The notes under the pieces are model-generated. The model had not been told where the DNA came from and did no database searches. It worked only from the letters and a program-made list of their open reading frames with translations. 64,000 nucleotides of DNA from Eledone cirrhosa (Eukaryota): contig OZ024742.1 of assembly GCA_964016885.1 (NCBI GenBank), forward strand, positions 219,294,001 through 219,358,000. The letters run 5' to 3'. This document shows positions 38,601 through 63,162 of the stretch, one piece after another (the first letter of the stretch is position 1; each line of letters opens with the position of its first letter). The position numbers and the translations under genes were made by a program.

Positions 38601-41600
38601 AAAACAAAATCCTTTACTAACCTGTATTTGGTGGGTCTGGATGCTTCAGAGGCACTATTGACTCGACGAAGTGGAATAGGAGAAAGTTGAGGATCCACTT
38701 CATTGGACAATCTAGAAATAATTTTGGAGAAAAAAAAAAAAAATTCTTTTATTCATTCTTGGTTCTTAAAAAGTGAAAAAAAAAAAAAAAAAAAAAAAAA
38801 AAAACATTCAATAAAATCCTTTTTAAATAAAAAATAAACTGAAAGAGCTTTGAAATTGACTAAATACAGCTTTGATACATTGTTTTTACATTTGCTTTTC
38901 CATGCTCACGTTGGATAAAGCATTTTGAGACAGTTTTTCTATAGGTGGATGTCTTTGCTGATGCCAACACATACTTTAAGTTCTTTATAAATATGATATA
39001 TACTACACAGATTTGACTGCTACACTACAAATGTTACTGCCTGCTTTAAACATTGTCAATATTTAAACAAACAAAAACACACAAATAAACACACAACACA
39101 CACAACACACACAACACACACAACACACACAACACACAAAACACACACACAACACACAACACACACACACAAAACACACACACACCACACCACACACACA
39201 CCACAACACACCACACCACACCAAACACACCACACAACACACCACACACCACACACCACACACCACACACACACACACCATCATCATCATCCATATGGCC
39301 ATTTATAGATCCAATTATACTGCATTGTTTGGCCCCAAGGTTATAGTAGCAAATAATTGGGATTAAATCAGAAACCATGTGGTTATGAAGCAAACTTCTT
39401 AACACAACTATACGTGCACCAATTATCACAGTCCTCAGTCACCTGTACGGGGTTCAGCTTCACCACTTTGACCCTTTCCTTTGGTCTCTTCCATAAGTCC
39501 CTTCTACTTCAATCATTCTCTCTCCCTCTCTGCACACACATATGTATACACACACACATTTTGGGGGTGGGGGTAGGGGGGGGTAGTGACAAAAAGTTAC
39601 AGTAATTCAGAGTTCATCGGGAATCCAAAGGGTAAACAAATGAAGAACCACGATGCCAGGTAGATTTTCAGGTTCCAATTTTTCTTTTTCCTGATAAAGG
39701 ACTAATGTGATACATCGAAACATTCATTTTCCTTTTCCATCAAGAAAGAAACTAAGATTGTTATTGTATCTGTATTCTTTTTCTTTTAATCTTAAACTAT
39801 ACAGTAGATACATAGCTTTACATTAAATATAATGATGCAGTAGAAAATAGGAAAACACACACACTTAAGGATGATACTACAACTACAATATGAACAAAAG
39901 AAAAACATATTAAAGTGATAGTAATTTAATATAAAACCAGACATGTTAAATCACATACACACACACACACAAAAGAAACCAACATTTTATATGATAATGA
40001 ATTATTAAATTAAAATCTCACCCAATCTTTTCAAGTGTGTCAACACTTCTCACTAAAGATTTGCTAGGATTTGGACTGGGTATTTTGTCAGGTGAAGTTA
40101 CTTTTTCTTGAGATGTTTCAATAAGTGGCGTTAACATAGTGTTCATATACGATTCAACTGAATACAGCAATTCTTTGGGTGTAGCAGTACGTCTCCGAGC
40201 CTGTTGATATGAACCATTTTTTAATTTATACCTTAACTCTTAACTGAATTTTAATGATATATACAAAGTATTTTAAAGGTGTTTTTAATAATCTAAAAAA
40301 CTAAATTATCAATACAATTAACAAATATATTGACAAATTATTATAGTACAGTTAATACGAAGCATTGTGAGATATGTAATAAATGACTGATAAGTTTCAG
40401 AAAGCCAGTACAATGTGGTAGAAATATATGAATAGCCCTGAAATATGTTGAAATACATTGGGTAAAACATTACTTTCTTTTGCTTTAGTCATCATTTGCC
40501 CTTTATATATTTCTACCGCAGTGTATCGACTTTTTGAAACTTATTCATAAAAAATTATTATATTTGGAATATCTAACATAAAAAAGAAGGTACTGTAAAG
40601 TACAAAAAAGGAGAGAGGACGAGAAAGAGACGAGAGAGACGAGAGAGGAGACGAGGAGACAAGAGAGCGAGGAGACGAGAGAGGAGACGAGGAGACAAGG
40701 AGACAAGAGAGACGAGAGCGAGGAGACGAGGAGACAAGAGAGACGAGGAGACAAGAGAGACGAGAGCGAGGAGACGAGGAGACAAGAGAGACGAGGAGAC
40801 GAGGAGACGAGGAGACGAGAGCGAGGAGACGAGAGCGAGGAGACGAGAGCGAGGAGACGAGAGCGAGGAGACGAGAGGAGACAAGAGAGACGAGAGGAGA
40901 CGAGAGCGAGAGGAGACGAGAGCGAGAGGAGACGAGAGCGAGAGGAGACGAGAGCGAGGAGAGGAGACGAGAGCGAGGAGAGGAGACGAGAGCGAGGAGA
41001 GGAGACGAGAGCGAGGAGAGGAGACGAGAGAGAGGAGAGGAGACGAGAGAGAGGAGAGGAGACGAGAGAGAGGAGAGGAGACGAGAGAGAGGAGAGGAGA
41101 CGAGAGAGAGGAGAGGAGACGAGAGAGAGGAGAGGAGACGAGAGAGAGGAGAGGAGAGGAGACGAGAGAGAGGAGAGGAGACGAGAGAGAAGAGAGGAGA
41201 GGAGACGAGAGAGAAGAGAGGAGAGGAGACGAGAGAGAGGAGAGGAGACGAGAGAGAGGAGAGGAGACGAGAGAGAGGAGAGGAGACGAGAGAGAGGAGA
41301 GGAGACGAGAGAGAGGAGAGGAGACGAGAGAGAGGAGAGGAGGTGAGAGAGAGGAGAGGAGGTGAGAGAGAGGAGAGGAAGTGAGAGAGAGGAGAGGAAG
41401 TGAGAGAGAGAGGAGAGGAAGTGAGAGAGAGAGGAGAGGAAGTGAGAGAGAGAGGAGCGGAGGTGAGAGAGAGAGGAGCGGAGGTGAGAGAGAGAGGAGC
41501 GGAGGTGAGAGAGAGAGGAGCGGAGGTGAGAGAGAGAGGAGCGGAGGTGAGAGAGAGAGGAGCGGAGGTGAGAGAGAGAGGAGCGGAGGTGAGAGAGAGA

Positions 41601-44600: not shown

Positions 44601-47600
44601 TAGATTTTAAGTGTCTTTTGAGCCTTGAAATGCATTTGAAGACCTGACTGCAAATACTGCAGCAATGTCTCATTTCAGCATTGGCTCTATTTTCCACTTG
44701 TTTATTATAAATGTTCAAGTGCTGCTTCAATCCTCCATGTGACTTGCAGGTGTTTTTGACAAACATGGCATTGAAACTGGTCATCCAGAATGAATTTCCA
44801 ATAATTCATGTGTGCCTTACCTGCATGAGTGCGATAGAGTAGTGTAAAGCATGCATACTTTTGTGCCAAAGGAACATTAAAAGAAAGAACAAGAATCACT
44901 CCCAACACTTGATATTAATCTTCTTTTTAATGAACTTTTCTTTTTGTTTCAGCATGCTTAAGACAGTAAGCCAAAGAAAAATACAAAGAATTTTTTAAAT
45001 CAAATTTTAACTTTTTTTCTTTCTCTATTTTTTCTTTCACCATAAAATTTGTTTGGGAATGCGCTAATCGTCTATACTAATGAAATGGCCTGTCCATTGT
45101 AATTGATTCCTAATAAGCATGGCTTTGACTGATGTGATCCTAGTTTCAATGAGAACCTCAGTATCAGGAAAAAGTGAGATTCAGCTTATTCTGAGTATGT
45201 GATGGAGGCATTTCTGGTGAAATCTTTCCAAAATTGTTACATGATGTCCAAGTTTCAGAAGAATACAGCAGTGTTGAAAGAACAAATGAGAAACATAGCA
45301 TCATCTTAGTGTCAGCTTTGACAGTTTAGAATCTAAAATCTGGTCACAATGCAATATCAAAGGCCCTTTGAATGCAAGAAGTGATTGTCTAAGTTTCCAT
45401 TAACATGGACCAGGCGACCCAGGTATTCAAAAGAGGTCACAACATTAAGCGCTGTACCCTTAACCAGTATCAGGAGAGCATTGATTTGTTCTCCAGGGAC
45501 AGCTTGATGCATTACAACAGTTTTTTTTTTGTTTTTTTTTTTCAAATTAATTGCGAGACCAAATACGCCACATGTAGAATCAAACACACTAATTAGGTTC
45601 TGTAAGTCTTGCTCAGTGTGACTTATTAGGTCATTGTCATCTGTGTATAACAGATCACATTCAAGAGAGGTAAAGACTTGGATTTGAAGTTCATTCTTGT
45701 CAGATTAAAAACATTACCTTAAGAGTGGCACCATATATAGATGCTATCAGTTGAAATTGCAAATACATTTGTTAGCACAACTGCAAAATAAATATCGAAG
45801 AGTGTCAGTGCATCAAGATCAACTTGCTTAATTCCATTTTCAACTGGAAATGGTTCTGACAGGGTTGCACCAAAGTTAACTTGAGCCTTCATATCCTTGG
45901 TTATATTCACAAACTTTTCAGGTCAACCAAATTCCTTCAGCACTAACAGTGCATTTCTGTTAACTGTGTCAAAAGATTTGTTAAGATACACAAAACAATG
46001 GTATGAGCCCATTCATTTTTCTGTGCATGCATGCTTTAGACAGGTTGTCATGTTGTGAGGCAAGTCAGGTCCAAAGACCACATTTTGCTCATATGGATTG
46101 GTATATGTAACAACAGTTTGTACGAAAAGGGTCCGTAAAGATGACTGTATATTTGTTATTTATATTTGTGTATTACCCACTCTACTACCCTAAGTATTGA
46201 GTACTCTGGTGCGTTACAGTCTACCTGGTTCCTTACCATACTTCCTTCGTTATATATATATATAGTAATTGTTTCTACTTTTGGCACAAGGCCAGCAATT
46301 ATTCCAGTGTATTACTGGTACTTTATTTTATCGACCCCGTAAGGATGAAAGGCAAAGTTAACCTCGGCGGGATTTGAACTCAGACCGTAAAGGACCGTAA
46401 CTCTTTGCTGCAAAGCATGGTGTCCGACCCTCTACCGATACTGCCAATCCACCGCCCTATATAGTAATGGCACATATACAGTGACAGTGGTAAGAGTGTT
46501 GTGCTTGCAATCATAAGGTTGTGAGTTTAATTACCAGACTGGGTGATGTGTTGTGTCATTTAACAAGACACTTCATTTCACATTGCTCCATTTTCTTCAG
46601 CTGTAAAACTGAGTTACAACATCACTGGTGCCAAGCTGTATTGGCTATTGCCTTTCCCTTGGACAACATTCCCTTGTTATGGAGCAGGGAGACTGGTATG
46701 CATGGGCGACTGCTGGTCTTCCACAAAAACACCTTGCCCAGACTTGTGCCTCAGAGGGGAATTTTCTAGGTGCAAATCCCAAGGTCATTCATGACTGAAG
46801 GGGTCTGTACCCTTTACATATATACATACACACACGTGATAATATTGCACTAGTGCGCATACTCTAGATTTTGACTGACTATGGTTACATCATATATAAA
46901 ATATACTCAAGATTCTGTAAATAAAATTTTAGAACAATATCACCAATTAACCAACAATATGGGGATATATATTCTCTTACTTATGTGACTTCAACATTTT
47001 AGTTTTAGCAAAAATTAAAGTTTTTCAAACATCACTAATCAATAAACTCTCCATCCTTTTAGTACAAAAAAAAAAAAAGAAAATGGTCTTTAATTAGATT
47101 CAAATAGATAAAATTTGCTTGGCTAAAACTTCTTAGTCATGAAACTAACTCGTATCTACAATATTCTAGCAGAAGAGATATAGGACTTGCTGAAGAAGTT
47201 TTTGAGATAGGTTTTGGTCATGGTTTTTGGAAGTGAATGAATAAAAAGAAATTCAAATGCAGAGACACTCAAGGAGAAAGAAAATTTAGAGGAAGACATT
47301 TTAAACAATTTCCAAGCAAGTTAGATTCCATGATGGCATGCTCCATGCACTGGCAACAAGATTTAAAGAGACAAGTATTATTTAGATATGTCTAATCTAA
47401 CTAAGAAAAGAAGCGCATGAATTAACCGATTAGGTCTTCTAATTTAGGGTCAATATCCAAAAATAAAACCAAAAACCCTGAAAATACTTTTACTTTTGAT
47501 ACTTTTCAAAAATAGTATACCAAGCACAACTGCTTATTGATGATTCCTGTACTTAAATGGTTAAAGATCAATTATTAAGATGACATGATGAAGCCCATTT

Positions 47601-49719
47601 TTAGTTATTGGAATGAATTTGCCATCTATTAGGAAAATTTATATATTTCAATTATTTTCAAATAATTTTCCTGGAATAAAAATTTACATTGAAATTTGAA
47701 ACCTGTAATGTTCCAACAGTTGGTGATCTGTCAAGAATTAATACTAGTAATTGCAAGTTATATACATAATCATATTAGCTTGTGCTGATCTAAAATTCAC
47801 TTTAAATTATTTCATTTTCAGAAAGGGACTTGTAAAAGGTCTTTTTTCTTAAACTTGTTTATAATTTCACCAATTATCTGTACATTTTGTCATTTTTCTA
47901 TTTTTTCACACCAGCAAAAATTGAATAGCTTTGTACAATTTGGAGAAATTTGTTTTGTTTATTGTAAAATTTGCAACTGAGATTAAATGTAGAAATGAAA
48001 CTATGATTTTGTGAAAATGTAATGAATAAAGGTATTCTAGCCATAACTCTCCCCACCACTAACACCACCCTATATTTTCTCTTTTTTTATTTAGCAGACA
48101 GTTTATCTTGGAAGACTTAATAAAAGTGTATTTTTTCTTAAAGACAGTAGGATGTTTTTTGAAAGATTTAGCTGTTACCTCTAGAAAAGTCAGTCTTACT
48201 AGTTGCTTTGCCAAACTGATGGAATCCTGTGTCAGAGAAACACTTTGGAACTTCTGGACCTCTCACAGTCTTATCCGGCCCTCGCAATTTGGATTTATCC
48301 CCAACTCCAGTGATCAACTTATCGAGTTTCTTGAAGACATCACCCGGATCACTGATGGCAGCTCATGGGTGGGTGGATGTTTACCTTGACTTTGCAATAG
48401 CTTTCAATTCTGTGCCACACAAGGCTTATGGCAAAACTCTCTGCAATGGGTGTGAAGGATGATCTTTTTAACTGGTTGAAGTCCTTCATTCTCAGTCGAA
48501 GAGAGGTAGTCACTGTTCTGGGACAGCATTCCTCACCATATGAGATGTCATCTGGTGTACCACAGGGATCTGTTCTTGGCCCCCTTTTGTTTGTGGCATA
48601 TATTAATGACATAGATGCCAACTTAAAGAATGCCACAGTACTAAAGTACGCAGATGACATCAAGCTGTACCTTGAGATAAAAAGGACAGATCCTGAACAC
48701 TATAGATCTCGCTTGCAGTCTGATCTGGACACAATGCAACAATGGATCTCAGACTGGCAACTCAAGCTACCTGTGGACAAGTGCACCACCATGCATTTGG
48801 GAGTAAAAACCCAGTGTCCACATACTCCCGCCACAGCACTAATATCAAGAAGTCTTGTGAACGTGACCTGGACATTACGGTCAGCAGCGATTTGTATTGG
48901 ACGAAGACGTCTCTAAAATTGTCAAGAGGGCTGAGGGTGTCTTAGCATCACTCAGCAAGACCTTTGTCAGCCGCTCTCCAGCTATCTATTTAAGGCTGTA
49001 CATGGCTATGGTGCGGCCACACATAGAATTTGCATCACCAGCCTGGAACCCCTATCTTGCTCAGAACATTGACCGCCTGGAAACTGTTCAGAGATGGGCA
49101 ACCAAGCGAATACCCTCCATCAGGCATCTACCATACTCTGAACGCCTTGCTTCCCTGGGCATGGATACATTGGCGCTCCGACGCCTGGCAACTGACTTAG
49201 TAAACACCCACAAAATTGTTAATCATCTTGCCAACTACAACCCTGAGTACCTTTTTGATTTCCATGTGTCTAACACACGTGGGCATGCCCACAAAGTCAG
49301 AAAACAGCAGTTCCCATGACTTTCGGAAACATTTTTTCACGCTCAGAGTTGCTGAAGCATGGAACAAACTACCTGCATCAGTTGTTAGCTGCCGAGACAC
49401 TGCATCCTTTAAAACCTCCATGGTTCCCGAGATTCGCCAACACTACACCTAATGTTCCACCTCCACACACATATACACATTTATATCATGACTCGTACAC
49501 TATTCACTTCCCTGACATTTGTATATTATTCTATGTACTATACATGCATCTTTGACGAGTTGTAGTGCACCCGAGCACTTTACACAATAATTTCATTATA
49601 TATTATATTAAAATCAAGTAACCCTGTATAAGCCCCTTTGTCAGTGGCTTCAGTAAAATGTAATGGAAGGTACAACCACTTGAATGTCTAAAACAGTTTA
49701 AATGTCAAATATGACCCGC

Positions 49720-49751
<32 letters not shown>

Positions 49752-52700
49752 AAGGCAAGTTAAAAGATTATCATGTTACATTATATTGTAAATTTTCTTG
49801 TATTCTGGTTTTTAGAATAAATACACTATATCCCTGCATGCCATAAGAAAGTTGGTGTCAGGAAAAGCATATAGCTGTAAAACTGTCTCAAAATATCCCA
49901 TTCAAGTCATGCTAGCATGGAAAGTGGACATGATAATGATATATAGATATATCAGTCAACAGAAAGTGAAATAAAAAGGACCTGGTACTCTAAAAACAAC
50001 ATAACCTTATTTTATAGACACTTATGCTTATGCATTGGTTTCAGTCACTGACAAGCAGTGTAAACATCTCTAGAACTGGATACAACTCTAAGAAATCTAG
50101 ACAATACCAGAAATACTCTAATGAAGTACAGCATATTTGCTGAAGTCATGCTCACCACCACTAACACCATCATTATTGTTATTATTAACTCCAGTGCATT
50201 GCCAAAAGGAGGACATGCTAAGACATTCTCAAACTCTTATTCCCTACAACATTTAATAGCAATTGGACTCCCTAGTTTTATATTTTTCCTACAAAAATAT
50301 GAGACTTTGCAAGTGAGGGATATTGTTAGGATCAATTAAAAATCTAATAAAGAGGGATTTAATCATGGAATATGACAAATAGTAAATGATGCAGAAAATA
50401 TCTTATTTGTGAGTTGGAGTTAAAATTATATCTTAGATGGGGAAAAATAGTTTATTTGAATTTAAAACATGCAAGAAAAGATGTATATCACAAACTTATA
50501 CAAGAAGCTAATTACCATTGAGTAGATATTTCATTATGAAGGAGAATAGAGGGTGAGGGAGAGGGTAATTAAATGGGTGACAATTGCTACAGATGTAGTT
50601 ACCAAAAGTAATACTTTCAACGAGGAATGTGCAAATCTGTGAGAAATTGCATGAAATTTGTTGCAGTGTGTGTTGATCAGGTAGGATTGCCTATAAAGTA
50701 AATAAGTATCAACATAGAGAAGCTGATTCAGCACACATTCATCAAATTGAATACAAAATAACATTATATTAAAAGGAAAAGGATAAATACTGAAAACAAA
50801 AAAGTGACCAAGTTAAATTAATTCAAATCAATGAGAATAGGTTTTCTACTGAATCTAAAAAGGCAAACATATGGTTAGTAAATTAGTTACATCAAGAGGA
50901 AATATTGGTTTCACAGATGACATCTACATAGTTACAGGCAAAACCAATTGGCAGGAAACCCAGTAGTAGACCCCAAACAAGATGGTTGGATAACATCCAT
51001 GAGCTTAGCTGATCTCGCTTGGGGATCAAGCCAGATCAATTGGAGACGGTTGCTTCTGACAGGACTTGTTGGAAGGAGTATTTGAGGACTGCCCCCACAA
51101 CCCTTTCAGGAATAAGTGAGTGAAGAAGACATCTACATGGAGGATCAAATTGACTAATTCCCCCAAAATAATACAAGATTATTTAATCAGCAACTTATTT
51201 AGATTGAACAAGCAAATTAAAATGAAATCGGAGTAAACATTTACTTCAAACTTTTAAACACATTCCTGTAAAGTCTTAAGATGTTAAAAATCAAAATTAA
51301 TAGACAAACTTAAATGTTCAAATATAAATTCTCCCCCAAAAGGGAAAAGCAAAGCTGTCCTAGCCAGCCTTGATCCCTAAATAGAAAGTGACATCATTAA
51401 ATAAGCAAAGCACTACCACTTCCACTATTATTTCTGCAACTTCACAAATCTCAAAATATTATTTTCAATTATATTTTAGCAATCTTTCAGATATAATCAG
51501 TAAAGTAATATAAATATTGAATATAAATAAGAATATAATTTACAAAAGTAGATGGGAGTCAAAACAGCAAAACACATTGTCTCAATTACAAACAACAAAA
51601 GGGAATACTGGTATTTCTCTTTAAACATTATTGAGACAACTCTGAACACTCATGACATTACCATGAATAACCACAAGACTGAAGTGCTGGAAGAGCTAAA
51701 CACCTTCATGAGCATAACTTGATATTTTCATATGATGAACTACAAAATTTTGTTCATGGCCCAGCTCTTGAGAAAGTTGATTCACCAGCAAATTATAATA
51801 TTTCAAATTATAATATTTCAGAAGTAACCATCACTCCCAGCACAGAATTTTGGATGTGTAATAATACAAAATAACCACTAACAGTAACACCCACTTGAGG
51901 CATCTACCTATAGCCTACAAAAGATAAAGGAATTTCTCAGAAATAGTATCCGAAATTTTATAGCTAGGCATCAATGAGATTTCCGTGTACAGTCAAAAAC
52001 AAAATTCTTTGTACATTAAAAACCGTTTCAAGACCTTAAATTTAAGACCAAACATAAAACCAAACACCATTTATTTCATCATTATCATCATCGTTTAATG
52101 ATAATAATGTTTAATATGTTTTAGTATTTTAAATCTTTTAATACCAACCTACATGAGACAGCAAGACTGCATTTAAATAAAATCTTAATCAAAACCACAT
52201 AACATGAATGATAATGCAAGTTTTTAATTAGTCAACACCAATATATTGTTACCATTTCATGTGCTTTTTCCATACGAGCCTGAATTGGATGGATCATCTC
52301 AGCCCAAGTCAGTAGTTATTCAAAGTTACTGCCATTCTAGACAAATCAGAGGACCACATCTATTATGGTATGGTTTTTACAGCTGCATGTCCTTACCAGC
52401 ACCAATCATTTTAAAGAGTGAACTGGGTTATTCTGGCAGCAGCAATAGAGAGGTTACCATGTCCTCAACAATACTGAAGAATCCTTTCTACTCAATATTT
52501 ACGGGGTCGATAAAATAAAGTACCAGTAATGCACTGGGTAATTGCTGGCCTTGTGCCTAAAGTAGAAACAATTATTTAATCACCAAGAAAGGTAATGGAT
52601 AGGCAGTATTGGTAGAGGGTCAGACACCATGCTTTGAAGCATAGAATTACAGCCATTTACATTCTGAGTTAAAATCCTGCAGAGGTTAACTCTGCCTTTC

Positions 52701-54130
52701 ATCCTTTCGGGGTCGGTAAAATAAAGTACCAGTAATGTACTGAGGTAATTGATAAGTAGAAACAATTATTTAATCACCAAGCTTTTTACAGCGTGTACTG
52801 AGTGCATTTTATCATGACACCAAAACTAGAGGGATAGCCTTACAAAGCACAATGAATACTAATATAGAAAATTAGATATTTTACTAAACTCTTTAAAATC
52901 TTTATATTTCAAATTAATTGAAACAATAGCACTTTACTCACTAGCTGTAGTCAGTCATAAGAGATTTAAAGGGATAGACAAAGATTGGCAAGTAACAATA
53001 CCGAACACACACACGCACACAAAAAAAAACAAAGAAAGAAATAAAGATAACAGCCAAGGCGACCTCAAAGATATGAAGTAAAATGATATTGTTGAGACAA
53101 GAGAGACAAGATTAAGACTGATTTAGAAAAGACAAAATAGAATTAGTATTTACCTAGTCGACTCTATAAATCAAAGTTAATAAATATGTATTAGTTTACC
53201 GGTTGTGACAATGTAGGTAGATGAAATCTATAAAGTTAAACATTTTCAATGCTACAGGAAAATAAATTGCTTTGCTACAGATTAATTAATTACTGTTTTA
53301 AAGCAGGATCTAATAATAAACACAGGTTAGATACATAATTTAATTTGTTATTAGACCTATAGTTAAATCTATGATATCTAAACAACTAATGATATAGAAA
53401 TCCTGGAAAATTTAATGGACTCTGCATGGCAATAATAGCAGAAAAGACGACTCACTGGTATAGGCTTCTCAAGCCCCGGGCAACAGCATCGCACCTAAAT
53501 GGAATGAAGTTAGAAATGTTCAAATTAGTCAAAGACACCTAAAATAAAGATCAGAGTCCCCTTGCTGTTTAGGTCAGCTCTCGTCAATAAACCACAATCA
53601 AAAGCATTCTAGCCATGACTATCAGGCTCCCTTAATGGTGATGGCTCTGGAGAAGGGAGTGAGAGTAGTAAAGATTTTTTTAATTCTTTAGTTATAATAG
53701 AATCTGTGAGAAATAAGAGTAAACATAACTAAAACATGACTGTCTCATCTCTGAGGAAGCAACTACTGATCTATCATGATCAGTTTCAAAAGTTGATGAG
53801 AAAAGTTGTAAAGGACCATTCAAGACTGCCCTACTCCTTTACCACCAGTACAGCAACAGCAACAACAACAATAATAATAATATAGCTAGATTTAGAGAGA
53901 TTTGGTTTTCTATATCACATCAATAGATTTACACCTTCGAGAGACCTTGGTAAACACCATGTTGCTTGCCTTTAACATCAGCCAAGCTTTTAACAGTATG
54001 AGAACCTCTTATAGTGTAATCATATCTATGATGTAAACCTGCTGAAAGATTAACAATGTATAAGAACTGATTTTCTATTTCAAACTAGACTTTCACTAAG
54101 ATCAGAGACTTCAGTGACGGTGCAGAGTAG

Positions 54131-54184
<54 letters not shown>

Positions 54185-57100
54185 CAAATAGTCTTGTAAA
54201 CCTATGGCCACCTTCCTACTCAAAACCCTACAATTTCTGATCTCAAAACTATATCCTAAAAAGTGCCAAGAAATAGTTTTGCAGTGCCAAGAAACAGTTA
54301 ACAGTTACTGATCTACCTCTATAGTCTAAAAATATGCTTGATTGAAAGACAAACTGAAGCTGTACTAAAATCACAATTGATTTCACAAGTTTCTACTCCA
54401 CCCCAACCCCACAATAAATAACTAGTTAAAACTGAAATGAAAAGAATATCACTTATGATACACAGAATTCTTTCTGAGTTACTTAGAGACTAAGTAAGTA
54501 AATAGATAAATAAATAAAAACTTGATAGCATATTTTAGTTTTAATAAGATATCAATATTTCTAAATATAATTTAATAAATTTAGTACAGTATATGGTTAT
54601 TGAATAGCTTATCTGTATGGCTGTTCTATTTTTGAGATGTTTTAATTTCAAAATCTATTTCCTTTTAGTTATAACAACTGATCATTTCTCTAAATCTCTA
54701 TATTTAAAAAAAACCAAAGTCAGTAATACTTTGCTGTATGCTATGATATGAAGCCACCATTCCTGATTGAGTTGTAGGGGTGCCATGTTGACAGAGCCTT
54801 TCTTAGGGTATTTTTTTAAAATTTGGCAGAGCCCATCTCCTCTCCAGTTGACTAATGGTGCACTCTATGTCTACTTGTATTTATACCTAATTTCCTCCCC
54901 ATATCTAAAGACGGCCCCCTACAATCACCTTGTAACACTTTTTCACAATCAATTAATATAAAAAAAGATTCATATTAATCCAGATATTTATTTTGCAGGC
55001 CTAGTTTCTGATTTAGGCACAAAGCCAACAATTTTGGGGGAGTGGAAAGTCAACTAAATGAACCCCAGAGCATTACTGGTACTTTATTTTATTGACCCTG
55101 TAAGGGTGAAAGGCAAAGTTAACCTCAGTGGGATTTGAAATCTGAATGTAAATGGCTGCAACTATATGCCACAAAGCATGTCCAACACTACCAATACTGC
55201 CAATCCACCACCCTCAGGCCTCAACTAATAATATTTGGTTATTTCCTTACAAATTAATTTACATTAAGCCAAATCAGTTTTAGCTCATTTTTTTTTCCAC
55301 ATTGGATAATTTACTGAAAAATATATTTTCTCTAAATACCTAAAAATAAACTAAGTTTAAAAAGAAAAAAAGAACTAAAAAAAGAAAAAAAAAGAACTAA
55401 ATATATTTACAGAGAGTTAGTAATTAAAGAGGAAAAATAAAAATTAGTAGAATATAAAAAAAAATCAGACAAAATCTCAACTGGCACCATAAAATTGTAT
55501 AAAACTGCAAAGAAAAATAGCTGAGTTAAGTTTCTACTACTTGAAAGATTAAAAGAAAGAAGTAAAATAGGCATGGTTGTATAATCCAATGAAACCCATA
55601 TGTAACTATAAACAGTTATTTCAAATCTATCCAACTAACCTTTAAAAACAAAATGAAATGAAAAACAGCAAGATTCTTTTAAAAAAACTACTTCATTATG
55701 ATTTATTGGCCATCATGCTTGATTACTATTATTTGTGTAGTTGGTGGAGTTGTAGGCATATAAAAGAAGAAATGAAATAAGTTTCTTGCAAACATGGGTT
55801 ATTTAGATATATATATAGATATATATAGATGTGTTCAGTTAATGCCGAGAGTTGACTAATGATAAAAATGATTTTTTCAAAGCAACATTTAGTATCTTGA
55901 GTTGTCTGTCTCCTTCCGATATATACCAAGCTGAGAATATTCATGACCAAAAGGCAATGCAACAATGTGTGTGTGTGTGTGTATATACATGGAGAGAAAG
56001 AGAATAAGAGAGAGAGAATGTTGTAGAAATTAAAAGAGAAGCTAGGTGTAAAAACACCAAATAACCCAAAACAATTAAATAGATAAGACATCCAACTGTG
56101 TAAAATATCACACACGCACACAAAACACACTTGCATGATGGCCAAACTAAAACAAGAAAAGACTATCTACATGCAGAATTAGTAAAGATTTGAATGAGAC
56201 AAAATAAAAATAAAATAAAAATTTGAAGGAAAAAAAATTGAAATAATACCCCAAAATGAGCAAGACCGGACCAATACTGACCTTTGTTTTCTTTAAAGAA
56301 TCTCCAGTGGCCATATTGGGAATGAGTTGTTGGTTTGTTCTCTGTCTGTCGAACATGCTGGTTAGTCCATGTGGATATACAGGGCAGGCAACAGAGGAGC
56401 GGAGAAGTAACAGCGAGGAGTAGTAGTAGGAGGAGGAGCAACAACAAAAATATGAAAAAAATACACATGCAGTGATTTTGATTATTATTTTTTTTCTTCT
56501 TAATGTATGTGTATCTTTTCTAAAAAGTCCACAACATCATTGAGAGTTCTATGTGATTACAATACATTAATGCCACAAACTAAATAAATGAAACTAAAAA
56601 AAAGCATGCAGTTTGGAATCCTTATACAGTCCAAAACATTGGGAGTCATCATAGGTTTTCAAGATGAAGGTGAAAGAACTACAGGCGAGGATCAGCAGAG
56701 ACACATGGGTAAGGGATGGGGAAGGGGCTTCAAGAGCTTCTGAAATAATGCAGCAGTAGAGTAACTGTATTAAGCTTATATGTAATCTTTGTAAAATATG
56801 TAACTCTTGTAGTGTATATAAGTATGGTGCACATCTGTATGTGTGCATGTGAATGGTGCACTTCTCACAAGAAGTGTGCATGTCTCCCCATATGCATATT
56901 CAATTTTCACCATATGTGTGAACATATTTATGTACATTATTATATATGAGGGCTGGGCTGAGTGAGTGAAAGAAATGTGCTGCATGTCGGGGATATGTCT
57001 TGCGAGAATGTATGTGTCTTTAAATATGTTGGAAAGAGATGTGCATAGACAGTGAAAAAGTTATTTAAACAAGTCAGCTCTGATTGAGCAGATATATGAA

Positions 57101-57300
57101 CAAAGATATTCCAGCAGTGACCAAACCATCTCATTTTTTCCAGACATATCTAGCTAGGTCTACACTATCTGATATTACCTTTTCTCCCAAAGATGGTAAA
57201 TTGTGATGTGAGGGAAATTTGACAACTATGACTAGCAGATTGAGCAACCACAAACTGGCTCCTTCAAAGCTGTGTGCAGTTATGTACATCTGTATTTCAG

Positions 57301-57382
<82 letters not shown>

Positions 57383-60300
57383 TACATACAAGCTTTAAAA
57401 TACAATATTTTTCACCAATCTCATGAAATTCAAAGACTTCCCTAACATGTGTAGTATTGGGAACATTTTAGGTAAAAATAACTGGAAACCTTATCAGATG
57501 TAATCCAAGACAAAATGTCTACGTAAATAAGTTGCAGATAAGCAGAAATGATAAGCAACACCAACATTCCAGGAACTCTTGGAGTCATTTTCCTTTAAGA
57601 ATGTCAATGAAGAAAAGAAGTAATCACCACTATAATTCCATCTTATATCACAGAAATGGTACAGGAACCTTAATATTTCATAACTATTCAAAGATTCCAT
57701 TTATGTATTAATTTATATGTGTGTGTGTGTGTATGCACACACACACACTAAAAAAGAAAAAAAATACAGCCATCACTTGCAATTGAGGATGACATAGTAT
57801 CAGCATGTACCATGCTTTTGCTAATGGTTTTAGGTGATCATGTAGTTAAGAGCATGCATAAAACCCTTATAACCTCCTCACTATTGAAGTGGAACATGCA
57901 GGATGTGTCAGAGTAAGTGAGAGGTGCACCAGCATTACAGGGTACTTTCTTTATTGACCCCAAAAGGATGAAAGAGTAGACCTTGATGGAATTTGAATGC
58001 AGAGCACAGAGAACAAAATATAGTAATTATGTTCTAACAACTCTACCTAGTCAATCACCTTATACATGCAAAATGATATACTACAAAAAGAGGCTATCAA
58101 GCCGGCACTTATCCCAGTTTCCGTGGCATGAAGCAACTGTGTACAAGATTCCCCCCTGAACAGGATGCCAGTCAATCGCAGGGTTAGACCCACAGCTACT
58201 GTTGCTGGTACTCATTTTCAGTTGAGTACACTGGAGCAAAGTGAAATGAAGTGTTTTGCTCAAGAACACAACACACAAGCCAGTCTGGGAATTGAACCCA
58301 TGACATTATGATCGTAAGTCCAACACCCTTACCACTAAGCTATGTGCCTCCATAAAATGATATACGCACATTCACAAATACATATATAATATTCTATGTT
58401 CAGCAGTTTAGTTGCCTTTAGTTTTTATTCTCTCCCCACACAATTTGGTGGTAGATTCTTATGAAACCAAAATGTGCCCAAATATTAATGATATACAATG
58501 TGGTTAATACGTTAACAAAATACATTTTTCAGATAAAAAAATAAAGATTGGAGAATGAAATAGTGTGGTAATATATGAAAATATGGCAATATTTGGGAGG
58601 TAGGCCTCAAATAATAATAATGATAATAATGGGCACTGGGTGTGTGTGTATGTATATATAAATATATATACACATATATATAGTTATTAGAGAGCCTGTG
58701 ACAACACACAATATTTGAACTGCAGAGGAACCCATACTTACACGTACAGGGGAGATACATTTTTTGACAGTCATGCTAGAATGTTTAGAAAAATAATCAA
58801 AGGCAACAATGATAATATAACAACAAAAACTTTTTTTTTTTAAATTGTCAAATTATGATTATTGTGGTGGGAATGATAACAACAACAACAGTTTATGTAG
58901 AAAAATAATAAAAAATTATATATAAAACTAGAAAAAAAGGCAGCATTCAGTTGACAGGCACAGGAAGGTGATGTGAGAATTCCATTAATGTCACAAGAGT
59001 GGTAGCAGCAGTAGAGACTAAAAAAAACATGGAGTGGTTTTTCAAGACCATAACAATTCTAATGCAATGAAGCACACTAAGACAACAGCAGCAAAGCAAC
59101 AAAAGTCACTGGAAGTCAAACCAATATCACAACAAAAGGGGCAGGGTGGATATGGGACAGGCCACCGCAATGAAGAATAAAAGAGAAAAAAGTAATTTGT
59201 TAATAACATAGCTTTAATAAAAACACTTATTTAATAATAGTAAAATATTAAACAGGAATAATAGACAAGGTTCTATACAAAATTAATCTGAGATCAACTA
59301 TACAATTAACAGGATTAACAGCTAACTAGTCTAATTATGAAATTACATGAAGGATTAGAAAAACAAATATTTTTAAGGCTAATACAAAATTTTGGAAAGA
59401 TTTACAGTATACTACCTTTTTTGTATTTTTTTTTTCAAGATATTTTATGTGAACACGCGTGTTGAAACATTTTATACTTTGGGAGGACCATGCTGCCAAT
59501 ATAATCACATGCACCAGTTGAATTTCACTTCAATTTATTATTATAATTTTCCATTGGTTAGTTTAACCCTTTAGCATTCACATTACTCTCTATATACTAT
59601 TATATTTTCATGGTAAAGGCTTTACCTCACATAAATACTTTCAAAATCCCATAGATTCAATATTATTTTGAGAACAATACCTTAACATCAGTTTGAGCGA
59701 CCAGTTACAGCCAGTTTCAAGAGAAAGCGGTAGAGAATTCTGACCGGTTTTGGCCGGTTTGTACATTAAAGGGTTAATAACCAGATGGTTGTTTAGGTGT
59801 CAATTGTCAAAGTTCTTTCGTCACATTCTGTGAACTCTTCAGTGACCACTTTTGTTACTTAGTGTCTCTTTATTTGTTTTACACCATCTTGTCACATTGA
59901 AAGGAAACCAAACTCAACTACAACTACGTGTGTTTTTATTGGCAGTATGACCCTTCCAAAGTATAACAATATATATATATATAAATTAATAAGTATAACA
60001 AAATGATTTCAGACAATTTACTTTAGAAATTTAGAGCCTTTTTGAATAAAAGAAAAAATAATCCACGGACATGATTTACTATTGTGACTTTTGTCAACCC
60101 GCTTTGAAACTACATTTGACTATATAAAAAAACAAACCACAAAGGAGTTATCTCTTACACAAAACAATAACATTTGGTTCTATTAGATTATAATAAAGGC
60201 AATCATTGTTGAAATCGATTTTATATTGAAGGTATCATTAATTAAAGATGTACAATTTGTTTGATCAAGACTAAAGTTCTGGCTAATCAAATGTGAATAT

Positions 60301-62670: not shown

Positions 62671-63162
62671 TTAGTAGAGCACAAAGCAACAATTTTTACA
62701 GAGGAAAGGTTTTGATTGGTAAATTATTAAGGTTTTGATTGGTAAATTATTATTGAATTTCAATATACTAACCCCCAGGAGTTAACTTTAAGTATGTAAA
62801 AGGACAAAACTAAACTGCCAAGAGTAAGTAGTAGAACTTTAGTAGAATATAGTTCTAATACTGTAGTAGCCAATGAATGCACTTGGAGTTTATAACTTGA
62901 TTGCTCATACATAATTAAATTTTAAAATCAACATGAACTTGCAAATTATACTACATACATTTTCTCCAAGGAATAAGGCTCATATTAGAAATATCATACA
63001 CTAAATAATACAACCAAGACAAATTACATTATAAATGGTAAATTATATGCTAATATGATATAACTATGAGAGAGTAAAAAGAAAAAAAAAAAATGAAATA
63101 TTGTGGTAGTCTTACTCACTTGTCAACAGGTGAGGTGGAACCTGAACTGACACTTTCAGTCT
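16085..63162 (-). CDS. KIF21: KIF21A/B-like kinesin-4, 3' part of a spliced gene (linker + WD40 tail); 5' part lies beyond the window
   Basis: Exons with canonical ag/gt ends join in frame. Peptides ARRRTATPKELLY, NDVFKRLT, EGHAKPVLSV..EDLLFTSSKDRTAKVWDL, SGSKDHYIKIFEV, NLEPPHFDGV..LFSGSRDRCIKKWDL and AHRDWINGL resemble the KIF21 tail as I recall it. Confidence 0.93.
16790..17740 (-). mobile_element. Degenerate LINE AP-endonuclease fragment (RTE-like)
   Basis: NVGTMRG, VQETRW, ISVYAP and SQIDFIL motifs on the minus strand. Confidence 0.8.
18845..19595 (-). mobile_element. RTE LINE 3' fragment ending in C2H2 zinc-finger-like motifs
   Basis: MRWTGHVIRMEDGRLPKHLF.GEL followed by FKCHICECTYKTKAGLKSHLLAH; (TACA)n tract at about 18775-18830. 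Confidence 0.8.
19980..21040 (-). mobile_element. Penelope-like retroelement RT fragment (degenerate)
   Basis: LINSTQSDIG..ILD, LDIQDYYVSI, NFLDVTLDL, YHKPNESLKYINLNSNHP and WYSSPFN motifs; catalytic DD is decayed. Confidence 0.85.
21207..21253 (+). ncRNA. Hammerhead-ribozyme-like motif beside the Penelope-like element
   Basis: gcattc-CTGATGA-t-ttcatatgaa-t-GAAAcag(ttgtc)ctgTA-gaagc; intact core, short stem I. Confidence 0.6.
22727..22869. repeat. 22-bp minisatellite (taataaagtgtggtgctgtatg), about 6.5 copies
   Basis: Perfect head-to-tail units. Confidence 0.95.
23501..23552 (-). CDS. KIF21: Alternative terminal exon A, coding part (N-DPESNKCYIWKLRDVA*)
   Basis: Acceptor ttattttgattccag in phase 2; D…IWK completes the last WD repeat; TAA at 23501-23503. 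Confidence 0.7.
24951..25210 (+). mobile_element. tRNA-derived SINE, family B
   Basis: A-box tggcctaatgg, B-box gttcaattcc, CORE-like ttcttgagcaaaacacttt; similar to 60405-60655. Confidence 0.85.
27819..28021 (-). CDS. KIF21: KIF21-like WD40 exon, 203 nt (SLYCAHRDWINGL…SGCRSGYLKLW…AHNFAITALATNKSAIFTAS)
   Basis: Acceptor tcctttcag, donor AA|gtaagt; phase 0->2. Confidence 0.95.
28823..28993 (-). CDS. KIF21: KIF21-like WD40 exon, 171 nt (IFEVNS…NLEPPHFDGVQSL…SGSRDRCIKKWDLKDKKIIQ)
   Basis: Acceptor taattag, donor CAG|gttatt; phase 0->0. Confidence 0.95.
29803..30586. mobile_element. Non-autonomous foldback mariner derivative with TA target duplication
   Basis: TA|caagggcaatcccaaaa … ttttgggattgccctcg|TA; long inverted arms; N-terminal HTH transposase relic (AVIRFLNAKG..EVYG..VRKWCRE..DEQRSGR), no catalytic domain. 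Confidence 0.92.
32674..32788 (-). CDS. KIF21: KIF21-like WD40 exon, 115 nt (FGCINKLTGHQAQVMVLAL…SGSKDHYIK)
   Basis: Acceptor attttatag, donor AAG|gtaatt; phase 2->0. Confidence 0.95.
33000..33400 (-). mobile_element. Degenerate RTE LINE 3' fragment
   Basis: RSGWEEFRELFLL and LSVKDKVYDAYL-like segments on the minus strand. Confidence 0.55.
33437..33675 (-). mobile_element. tRNA-derived SINE, family B
   Basis: Reverse complement starts ggtgcatggcctagtggttaggg…ggttcgattcc. Confidence 0.85.
35230..35385 (-). CDS. KIF21: KIF21-like WD40 exon, 156 nt (SSGPSSLP…INAIALSDDGQTLFAAVGNLVRMWDLR)
   Basis: Acceptor cgttttcag, donor AA|gtaagt; phase 2->2. Confidence 0.95.
36255..36441 (-). CDS. KIF21: KIF21-like WD40 exon, 187 nt (DRTAKVWDLNTG…VKVWDIRDIKTPTCVITL)
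   Basis: Lies within ORF 36251..36484; acceptor catttag, donor AA|gtaagt. Confidence 0.95.
37323..37462 (-). CDS. KIF21: KIF21-like exon, 140 nt, start of the WD40 domain (…CSHVVEGHAKPVLSVCATEDLLFTSSK), phase 2->1
   Basis: Acceptor aaactcag, donor AAG|gtagaa; WD40 GH motif. Confidence 0.92.
37828..37935 (-). CDS. KIF21: KIF21-like exon, 108 nt (EPVSPLRSPQTPRKRCNDVFKRLTLKADISSSESN), phase 2->2
   Basis: Acceptor ctttatag, donor AG|gtaagt; SP-rich segment plus VF.RLT motif. Confidence 0.9.
38622..38711 (-). CDS. KIF21: KIF21-like exon, 90 nt (LSNEVDPQLSPIPLRRVNSASEASRPTKY), phase 2->2
   Basis: Acceptor atttctag after a poly-T tract, donor AG|gttagt; open frame. Confidence 0.85.
39070..39280. 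repeat. Compound CA-rich repeat (GU-rich on the gene's sense strand)
   Basis: acacacaac/cacac units. Confidence 0.95.
40022..40200 (-). CDS. KIF21: KIF21-like exon, 179 nt (ARRRTATPKELLYSVES...TLEKIG), phase 0->2
   Basis: Acceptor atcaacag, donor GG|gtgaga; carries the ARRRT..ELLY motif. Confidence 0.9.
40611..41935. repeat. 1.3-kb GA-rich compound minisatellite (CU-rich on the sense strand)
   Basis: Units drift from gaggagac variants to a 17-mer and then to the 21-mer gagagagagaggagcggaggt. Confidence 0.95.
42310..42493 (-). mobile_element. tRNA-derived SINE, family A
   Basis: Reverse complement ggcggtggattggcagtatcggtag…gagttcaaatcccgcc (A and B boxes); many copies in the window. Confidence 0.9.
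42994..43583 (-). mobile_element. Non-autonomous Helitron, 590 bp
   Basis: Minus strand reads A|TCTATAATATAATAAAAG … aaccaccc-gaa-gggtggtt hairpin … CTAG|T; A/T target and no TSD. Confidence 0.8.
44584..46030 (-). mobile_element. Degenerate RTE LINE ending in two C2H2 finger-like motifs
   Basis: DLTKSFDTVN-like, LSEPFPVENGIKQ, LLYTDD and FEYLG motifs, then FQCHVC…KSHGGLKQHL and CSICSQVFKCISRLKRHL. Confidence 0.75.
46268..46456 (-). mobile_element. tRNA-derived SINE, family A, with TSD-like tatatagtaat flanks
   Basis: Near-identical to 42310-42493; tatatagtaat on both sides. Confidence 0.9.
46468..46815 (+). mobile_element. tRNA-derived SINE, family B (long variant)
   Basis: Inverted relative of 5341-5673. 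Confidence 0.8.
48187..49605 (+). mobile_element. 5'-truncated CR1/L2-group LINE, RT and C-terminal region with frameshifts
   Basis: SQFGFIP, VYLDFAIAFNSVPH, SGVPQGSVLGPLLF..YINDI, KYADDIKL, VRPHIEFASPAWNP and FFTLRVAEAWNKLP. Confidence 0.95.
52591..52768 (+). mobile_element. tRNA-derived SINE, family A (preceded by a partial copy at about 52500-52575)
   Basis: Forward-orientation copy of family A. Confidence 0.85.
53200..53227 (-). CDS. KIF21: Candidate microexon, 28 nt (FHLPTLSQP), phase 2->0
   Basis: Acceptor tttaactttatag, donor CCG|gtaaac; phase-compatible alone or after the 39-nt exon. Confidence 0.45.
53456..53494 (-). CDS. KIF21: Candidate symmetric microexon, 39 nt (K-CDAVARGLRSLY in phase 2, or VRCCCPGLEKPIP in phase 0)
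   Basis: Acceptor cattccatttag, donor CCA|gtgagt; GC-rich island in an AT-rich intron; open in both usable frames. Confidence 0.55.
55004..55212 (-). mobile_element. tRNA-derived SINE, family A
   Basis: Shares cattactggtactttattt…gaaaggcaaagttaacctc…actgccaatccacc with the other copies. Confidence 0.85.
56282..56357 (-). CDS. KIF21: KIF21-like linker exon, 76 nt (N-MFDRQRTNQQLIPNMATGDSLKKTK), phase 2->0
   Basis: Acceptor ctaaccag, donor AAG|gtcagt; splicing to 40200 gives K-ARRRT, as in the KARRRT motif of KIF21. Confidence 0.7.
57179..57269 (-). CDS. Weak candidate alternative exon, 91 nt (N-FEGASLWLLNLLVIVVKFPSHHNLPSLGEK), phase 2->0
   Basis: Donor AAG|gtaata is good; acceptor actgcacacag has a poor pyrimidine tract; frame is open and phase-compatible. 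Confidence 0.25.
57302..57379. repeat. (TG)n microsatellite
   Basis: Uninterrupted TG run. Confidence 0.95.
58091..58351 (-). mobile_element. tRNA-derived SINE, family B
   Basis: Reverse complement of the 24951 and 60405 copies. Confidence 0.85.
58742..58775 (-). CDS. KIF21: Candidate alternative microexon, 34 nt (N-MTVKKCISPVR), phase 2->0
   Basis: Acceptor atttttctaaacattctag, donor CGT|gtaagt; bridges exon 63120 to exon 40200 in frame. Confidence 0.55.
59567..59773. mobile_element. TTAA-flanked piggyBac-like MITE
   Basis: TTAA|cccttta … taaaggg|TTAA. Confidence 0.8.
60405..60655 (+). mobile_element. tRNA-derived SINE, family B
   Basis: catggcttaatggttagg…ggtttgattcc…gagcaaaacaattt. Confidence 0.85.
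62415..62565 (-). mobile_element. tRNA-derived SINE, family A (5'-truncated)
   Basis: Matches family A but lacks the head. Confidence 0.85.
63120..63162 (-). CDS. KIF21: KIF21-like exon, 43 nt (TESVSSGSTSPVD), phase 1->2
   Basis: Acceptor ttgttttcag, donor AA|gtgagt; open Ser-rich frame. Confidence 0.8.

What the first reader, a model, noticed from the sequence alone, without database searches (positions are those of the whole stretch)
53200..58775. Candidate array of mutually exclusive microexons in the KIF21 linker
Seen: exon 63120-63162 ends in phase 2 and exon 40022-40200 starts in phase 0, so direct joining shifts the frame. Several spliceable segments each bridge 2->0: 58742-58775 (34 nt, MTVKKCISPVR), 56282-56357 (76 nt, MFDRQ…KKTK), 53200-53227 (28 nt, FHLPTLSQP) and, more weakly, 57179-57269 (91 nt). 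All have length 3n+1, so including any two breaks the frame. The 34-nt and 76-nt exons both begin ag|CATG. Known: vertebrate KIF21A is alternatively spliced in its tail linker. Inference: a choose-one cassette changes the peptide immediately before the conserved ARRRT motif.
Basis: partly seen in the sequence, partly recalled or inferred. Interest (0 to 1): 0.75.

Follow-up and report, generated by a model that had tools for sequence, protein, structure and literature searches.

The report
Choose-one exons split KIF21's KANK site
An octopus-type kinesin gene (KIF21) has three alternative exons, also found in cuttlefish relatives, that each restore the reading frame and would change one contact residue of its predicted binding site for the cell-cortex protein KANK, plus a highly conserved stop exon that likely switches the gene off but might instead make a membrane-anchored motor.

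Summary
The coordinates and frames are right, but the exon list is half wrong. The 34-nt (A) and 76-nt (B) exons are real: Octopus and cuttlefish-type KIF21 proteins use one or the other. The 39-nt exon (C, 53494-53456) is an in-frame add-on after B. The 91-nt segment is a dispersed repeat, and the 28-nt segment scores like chance; neither appears in any of 39 cephalopod proteins. Two conserved exons were missed. D (50690-50603) is a third frame bridge. T (59108-59042) encodes 21 hydrophobic residues and a stop, 21/21 identical to cuttlefish-type proteins that end there. The junction at 40200 cuts the KANK-binding peptide (PDB 5YAY) just after the K1154 contact. That residue is K in B, R in A, P after C and L in D, against K in 135 of 135 vertebrate proteins with the motif. 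One-at-a-time use is most likely enforced by frame and nonsense-mediated decay; strict exclusion at the splicing step is untested. T is probably a poison exon (about 0.5) but may yield a tail-anchored kinesin (about 0.3). No junction reads could be examined for this species.

The parts
63120..63162 (-). Upstream constitutive KIF21 exon, 43 nt, ends in phase 2
   Evidence: matches O. sinensis KIF21A 1072-1086
59109..59170 (-). Conserved intronic block before the T acceptor
   Evidence: its translation matches the genomic read-through ORF P0203, with a frameshift
59042..59108 (-).
   Evidence: 21/21 identical to P0144 and P0146, 20/21 to P0020 and P0150, which end there directly after the upstream exon; single copy in G000
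58935..58975 (-). Conserved non-coding block between T's stop and exon A
   Evidence: 9 of 12 pseudo-residues match P0203 (read by eye)
58742..58775 (-). Bridge exon A, 34 nt, 2->0, last codon Arg; a second GT donor 6 nt upstream would give 28 nt ending in Pro
   Evidence: used alone in P0003, P0010, P0011, P0012, P0015, P0018; short form in P0009; best splice score of 443
58424..58429 (-). First AATAAA downstream of T's stop (about 610 nt on, beyond exon A); possible poly(A) signal, untested
57179..57269 (-). 91-nt candidate: rejected, dispersed-repeat pseudo-exon
56282..56357 (-). Bridge exon B, 76 nt, 2->0, last codon Lys; weakest acceptor of the set (score -1.0), with ACTAAC 9 nt before the exon
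   Evidence: used in Octopus, Argonauta and Sepia proteins; scores and motif
53456..53494 (-). Cassette C, 39 nt, 0->0 after B, Cys-Cys motif, last codon Pro
   Evidence: B+C in P0001, P0005, P0008, P0013; a longer counterpart in Sepia-type proteins
53200..53227 (-). 28-nt candidate: unsupported, scores like chance pseudo-exons; not formally excluded as species-specific
50603..50690 (-).
   Evidence: matches the Sepia P0136 bridge (tblastn E 1e-5 in 23 kb; global score 60, 0 of 5000 shuffles reach it); P0147 begins inside the counterpart and runs into ARRRT; rank 3 of 443
40022..40200 (-). Downstream constitutive exon, phase 0, begins ARRRT: second half of the KANK-binding peptide

Best explanation
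The intron after the KIF21 coiled coil holds three frame-bridging exons (A 34 nt, B 76 nt, D 88 nt), an in-frame add-on (C 39 nt) and a stop exon (T), all with counterparts in cuttlefish-type proteins; only one-bridge mRNAs keep the frame, so wrong combinations are likely removed by nonsense-mediated decay, and the choice would tune binding to KANK. Shown: exon identities, phases and conservation; every combination with zero, two or three of A/B/D frameshifts to an early stop; the junction falls between the K1154-equivalent and ARRRT. Inferred: (1) tissue-specific RNA-binding proteins choose the acceptor, and decay rather than steric hindrance makes the set look exclusive; (2) B (Lys) and A (Arg) keep the site-II salt bridge to KANK, while C (Pro) and D (Leu) would weaken it, changing how much motor is held at the cortex; (3) T most likely works as a poison acceptor 333 nt upstream of A's, splicing out through A's donor and switching off full-length KIF21.
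For: Of 32 cephalopod proteins holding the upstream exon (39 examined): A 6, short A 1, B 7, B+C 9, D 1, T-stop 4, stop at the donor 2, composite gene models 2; none has A+B. Frame table. PDB 5yay_B and 5ybu_B span the junction. PMC8368038 (passages) names 5YAY as the KANK1/KIF21A complex and K1154, R1156, R1157 as site-II salt bridges; that K-x-R-R spacing fits the Lys before ARR. G000 has a KN motif over the Pfam cut-off and ankyrin-like exons about 70 kb downstream. Gastropod proteins show the same K-versus-P alternation before ARRK. For T as poison: no GTRAG donor seen between its stop and A's donor (read by eye); no AATAAA before 58429; no T form among 15 Octopus cluster members; hydrophobicity largely follows from 49% T content (7% of 7683 open shuffles match it).
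Against: No junction reads were examined for this species. Protein collections cannot show frameshifted A+B products, so their absence is expected under any mechanism. D rests on one Sepia model, one composite model (P0137, which holds B, C and an extended D together) and one Logan fragment, and is absent from the 15 Octopus proteins. KANK binding was not tested for the cephalopod proteins, and R1156, R1157 and the helix lie in the constant exon, so the effect may be small. T is the commonest continuation among unnamed Logan proteins that extend past the upstream exon (4 of 9), which is unexpected for a decayed RNA. Its 21/21 identity exceeds the nine other exons compared (53-83%).
Confidence: 0.6

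Rival explanations
1. T is an alternative last exon: the mRNA is stable and makes a KIF21 of about 1,100 residues with motor and stalk but no KANK site or WD40 propeller, ending in a short transmembrane tail that would tie the motor directly to a membrane.
For: 21/21 and 20/21 identity with no indel and the same stop, in two decapodiform-like lineages 88% identical to each other, while the flanks show frameshifts. Most hydrophobic C-terminus of 159 distinct stop-ended frames in the intron (KD19 2.59). Full-length 1,107-aa ORFs P0144, P0020 and P0150 end in it.
Against: Composition alone gives mean KD19 1.97, and a neighbouring frame scores 2.45. An intron read-through ORF (P0281) is as hydrophobic. 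T against the three best flank blocks (21/21 vs 20/25, blocks picked by eye) gives Fisher p 0.054. Another alternative exon of this gene is also 13/13 identical among octopods. No T form in the 15 Octopus cluster members, and no T-like tail recognised among 149 further representatives. KIF21B without WD40 is fully autoinhibited (PMC5383399, passages).
Confidence: 0.3
2. Exclusion is enforced at the splicing step by competing RNA duplexes, as in Dscam or 14-3-3zeta.
For: The best duplex covers A's acceptor and pairs with 53624-53605 (-27.7 kcal/mol; 4 of 200 shuffles as strong). The upstream donor can pair with a stretch just after B's donor (-24.9). The introns before T and before B share a short motif (by eye).
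Against: The 53624 partner overlaps a segment with a second genomic copy and pairs across an A codon that varies between species. No common docking site for A, B and D emerged. None of eight local folds beat shuffles (z -0.93 to 1.35). Covariation could not be tested.
Confidence: 0.12
3. The first reader's four-member array is right, including the 28-nt and 91-nt segments as species-specific exons.
For: Both are open and have AG/GT ends. B, a real exon, also scores modestly (rank 14). The 28-nt segment is single-copy.
Against: No homologue in 39 cephalopod proteins; chance density is the same in control introns; the 91-nt segment is a repeat copy.
Confidence: 0.06

Closest known systems
Vertebrate KIF21A KANK-binding peptide (PDB 5YAY, 5YBU)
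   Same: Same ARRRT...ELLY core after a basic residue, between coiled coil and WD40; KANK-like gene present.
   Different: In vertebrates the residue before ARRR is K in 135 of 135 proteins with the motif; here it is supplied by alternative exons and is K, R, P or L.
Regulated cassette exons of mammalian Kif21a (SLM2/Sam68-controlled exon; distal-element-controlled exon)
   Same: Same gene family under tissue-regulated splicing (PMC5199341 passages; PMC10790352 passage).
   Different: Those are described as cassette exons; the vertebrate proteins held show no alternative at this junction. Which Kif21a exons those papers mean was not mapped.
Mutually exclusive exon clusters (Dscam, 14-3-3zeta, ATE1)
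   Same: One-of-several inclusion between constant exons.
   Different: Members differ in length (34/76/88) and show no clear similarity beyond ag|CATG in A and B; no docking-selector structure was found; all are 3n+1, so frame alone can explain the pattern.
Ultraconserved poison exons and non-triplet splicing (NMD-sensitive versus alternative C-terminal isoforms)
   Same: T is a very conserved stop-bearing exon; the same two outcomes are described in PMC13247117 (abstract) and PMC13228269 (listing).
   Different: The host is a motor, not a splicing factor; T has no evident donor of its own and encodes a transmembrane-like peptide.
Tail-anchored splice isoforms (DMPK, SLMAP3)
   Same: An alternative C-terminus adds a hydrophobic anchor (search listing only).
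   Different: No kinesin with its own tail anchor was seen in the listings; whether T is translated stably is unknown.

Membership tests
Mutually exclusive exons | Each member is used alone between the same constant exons | tested here: met
   A and B in several species; D in Sepia P0136 and fragment P0147
Mutually exclusive exons | Never both, never neither, at RNA level | not testable with these tools
   protein sets cannot show frameshifted products; no junction reads available
Mutually exclusive exons | Same frame class, so substitution keeps the frame | tested here: met
   34, 76, 88 nt are all 3n+1, 2->0
Mutually exclusive exons | Tandem-duplicated, similar length and sequence (typical; recalled) | tested here: not met
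   lengths differ; no self-match among exon regions at E 1e-6 (D itself was not among the labelled segments but lies in no repeat interval)
Steric or U2/U12 exclusion | Very short intervening intron, or mixed U2/U12 sites (recalled) | tested here: not met
   A-B intron 2,384 nt, B-D 5,591 nt; donors GTAAGT, GTCAGT, GTAACT are U2-type
Docking-selector (Dscam-type) cluster | Conserved competing duplexes to one docking site | tested here: inconclusive
   no orthologous DNA for covariation
Microexons | Length at most 27 nt (strict) or 51 nt (loose); thresholds recalled | tested here: not met
   only A (34) and C (39) pass the loose bound; B 76 and D 88 do not
KANK-binding motif of KIF21 | Basic residue + ARRR + hydrophobic helix (ELLY) | tested here: met
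   basic residue present only with A or B
KANK-binding motif of KIF21 | Binds the KANK ankyrin domain | not tested
   no cephalopod KANK protein sequence was held
Poison exon | Premature stop well upstream of later junctions | tested here: inconclusive
   the stop is present and conserved, but whether T splices onward is unknown
Poison exon | Transcript rises when NMD is blocked | not testable with these tools
   needs experiment
Tail-anchored protein | Single hydrophobic segment at the extreme C-terminus | tested here: met
   KD19 2.59; summed Hessa scale (values recalled) -1.77
Tail-anchored protein | Stable protein inserted in a membrane | not testable with these tools
   needs proteomics or expression

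The most novel reading that the evidence does not exclude
Coleoid cephalopods use one splice choice to switch a kinesin-4 between cortex-bound forms of graded KANK affinity (A, B, B+C, D) and a tail-anchored form (T) that drops the KANK site and WD40 propeller and inserts directly in a membrane: a kinesin carrying its own transmembrane anchor, unchanged between octopods and cuttlefish.
Probability: 0.3. Interest if true: 0.8.

Novelty: new variant of a known kind. Interest (0 to 1): 0.52.

Why it matters
KIF21A-KANK binding links microtubule ends to the cortex and shapes dendrites (PMC11246154, PMC9145010, passages). Here the binding peptide is split by an intron and its site-II lysine is set by exon choice, giving a natural series (K, R, P, L, absent) that can be tested with short peptides. 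The K/P alternation also appears in gastropods. If T is translated, it would be a kinesin with a built-in membrane anchor, bypassing cargo adaptors. If T is a poison exon, it is a deeply conserved off-switch in a motor gene. A, B and C are already present, unremarked, in public Octopus protein models; T and D are not in those 15 models.

Tried and rejected
No RNA holder listed for this species; three contig runs of one sample were laid instead. They cover T with no difference (3 of 3 runs) and A (2 of 3), show no difference in C or the 28-nt segment, one missense difference in D, and no cover over B. They may be the assembly's own sample and give no independent support. A 10-nt candidate at 53162-53153 seemed to match the Sepia D peptide but was coincidence once D was found. 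A hit at 43385-43362 has an in-frame stop upstream and was dropped. A duplex between the block after T and the 40200 exon (-24.1) does not fit the P0203 letters. No Rfam family at T, A, B, C or D; the six weak matches lie on simple repeats or other intron sequence. Orthologous intron DNA was not found: 0 matches in two metagenome pattern scans. The Atlas search gave no result. The 40200 exon alone found no PDB match at E 10; the link to 5YAY runs through a mouse stretch. The first splice scan missed early stops and used some wrong training sites; it is replaced (25 acceptors, 23 donors). The primary KANK-KIF21A structure papers were not held. No complex was predicted: one job cannot compare isoforms. 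No earlier scan findings were returned. No supplements were read; they could hold unremarked cephalopod splicing tables.

Full report
Gene and observation. The window carries the 3' half of a KIF21 gene on the - strand. tblastn of O. sinensis KIF21A X1 against the window plus 60 kb of adjacent genome maps the exons from the motor to the last exon. The linker exon is 72-79% identical to O. sinensis, so this is another octopod-like species.

Chance. With a splice model trained on this gene's own sites (25 acceptors, 23 donors), the intron holds 443 open 2->0 candidates. A ranks 1, D 3, B 14, the 28-nt segment 18 and the 91-nt segment 25. Control introns of 23.8 and 11.5 kb hold 20 of 486 and 11 of 264 candidates at or above the 28-nt score. 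The 91-nt segment matches 11 other genomic places. Score alone cannot exclude an exon, since B itself is weak; conservation decides.

Which exons are used. Of the 15 members of the Octopus cluster, 5 use A, 1 a 6-nt shorter A, 5 B and 4 B+C. Across 39 cephalopod proteins, 7 lack the upstream exon. The other 32 give A 6, short A 1, B 7, B+C 9, D 1, T-stop 4, stop at the donor 2, and two composite Sepia models, P0135 and P0137. None has A+B, the 28-nt or the 91-nt peptide. That RefSeq models rest on RNA alignments is recalled. That the unnamed Logan proteins come from spliced RNA is inferred from ORFs of 1,107-1,559 aa on 3-6 kb contigs, whereas the gene spans over 100 kb here.

Missed exon D. 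The Sepia protein P0136 uses a different bridge, which maps to 50690-50603: 88 nt, AG/GT, with the exon ending the same number of codons after the shared core. Its global alignment score of 60 was not reached in 5000 shuffles. Logan fragment P0147 starts in its counterpart and runs into ARRRT. D is absent from the 15 Octopus proteins, so its use in octopods is inferred.

Missed exon T. Four Logan proteins end 22 residues after the upstream exon's last full codon. Their last 21 residues are encoded at 59107-59045 behind an AG, followed by TGA: 21/21 identical to P0144 and P0146 (about 98% identical to Sepia pharaonis KIF21) and 20/21 to P0020 and P0150 (88% identical). An ENA read-through ORF, P0203, shows T just upstream of A in a cuttlefish-type genome. 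Its flanks are conserved but frameshifted, and it has W at the stop position, probably TGA read under another code, which was not tested. Nine other exons match cuttlefish-type proteins at 53-83%. T is the most hydrophobic ending of 159 intron frames, but 7% of open dinucleotide shuffles match it and a second frame is nearly as hydrophobic. An intron read-through protein, P0281, does as well. No T-like tail was recognised among 149 further representatives.

Mechanism of choice. Every combination of zero, two or three of A, B and D frameshifts to a stop within 19-83 residues, with or without C. The in-frame sets are A, B, D, A+C, B+C and C+D. Introns of 2.4 and 5.6 kb exclude steric hindrance, and the donors are U2-type. 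The best long-range duplex masks A's acceptor (4 of 200 shuffles as strong), but its partner overlaps a segment with a second copy in the genome. I therefore favour regulated acceptor choice plus decay. Candidate elements are untested and their assignments recalled: ACTAAC 9 nt before B (Quaking-type), TGCATG on both sides of B (Rbfox-type), and 9 YGCY in 179 nt from T's acceptor against about 1 per 100 nt in the intron (Muscleblind-type).

Consequence for the protein. The mouse stretch around ARRRT is the KIF21A chain of PDB 5YAY and 5YBU. PMC8368038 (passages) identifies 5YAY as the KANK1 complex and lists K1154, R1156 and R1157 as site-II salt bridges. PMC11246154 (passages) gives a 28-residue region, 1142-1169; counting along it puts K1154 directly before ARRR, which is my inference. 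That residue is the last codon of the bridge: K in B, R in A, P after C or short A, L in D. It is K in 135 of 135 vertebrate-type proteins with the motif (136 held), and K or P in 17 of 19 gastropod proteins (9 K, 8 P). G000 has a KANK-like gene, and PMC9145010 (passages) reports the motif conserved to Cnidaria. T removes this site and the WD40 tail, which binds microtubules (10.64898/2026.07.29.741364, abstract). KIF21B lacking WD40 is fully autoinhibited (PMC5383399, passages).

Poison or anchor. T shows no GTRAG donor before A's (by eye), the first AATAAA lies beyond A, and no Octopus model has T. Another alternative exon of this gene is also 13/13 identical among octopods. These points favour a poison acceptor (about 0.5). 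Exact peptide and stop conservation, and T's frequency among Logan proteins that extend past the upstream exon (4 of 9), favour a stable last exon (about 0.3). The contig lengths cannot tell the two apart.

Literature. Six searches bear on novelty, seen as listings only: 14 of 17 papers listed; 25 of 55; 20 of 66; 14 of 16; 5 of 5; 20 of 46. None showed cephalopod KIF21 splicing or a tail-anchored kinesin isoform. Vertebrate Kif21a splicing is regulated by SLM2/Sam68 (PMC5199341, passages) and by distant elements (PMC10790352, passage). PMC10074678 (passages) lists Kif21a as differentially spliced. PMC13247117 (abstract) describes NMD-sensitive and alternative C-terminal outcomes of non-triplet splicing. 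The library lacks most subscription papers, and no supplements were read.

Verdict. A real, coleoid-conserved choose-one cassette with a revised membership. It cuts a known binding motif and includes one unexplained, very conserved stop exon. New variant of a known kind; interest 0.52.

Noticed in passing
G000:C3, about 21.4 kb beyond the window's end (offset 85408-85370): A 39-nt in-frame alternative exon of KIF21, 13/13 identical among this species, Octopus and Argonauta; a 7-residue alternative segment lies before it in Octopus and Sepia proteins, and the T-form P0144 includes that segment.
   Followed up: partly
window 53456-53494: Cassette C is open in two frames (after B, or directly after the upstream exon, then D); its Cys-Cys pair is kept in Sepia-type proteins and could be a palmitoylation site (recalled motif, untested).
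   Followed up: partly
P0023, P0167, P0019, P0204: Gastropod and unnamed proteins show further inserts or different bridges at the same junction, suggesting alternative acceptors here beyond cephalopods.
   Followed up: no
window 50666: One difference in exon D in the sample's own contigs changes His to Gln; the frame stays open.
   Followed up: partly
window 40600-41950: A 1.3-kb pure C/T/G low-complexity tandem tract just before the 40200 exon.
   Followed up: no
window 48200-49570 and 45050-46100: Decayed reverse-transcriptase-like (LINE-type) fragments in the intron, judged by eye.
   Followed up: no
G000:C3:326780688-326854107: KANK-like gene: KN motif in a 2,045-codon open frame, with ankyrin-like exons about 70 kb downstream.
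   Followed up: partly
window 58739-58757: A 7-bp hairpin is predicted over A's donor (window z -0.53, not significant).
   Followed up: no
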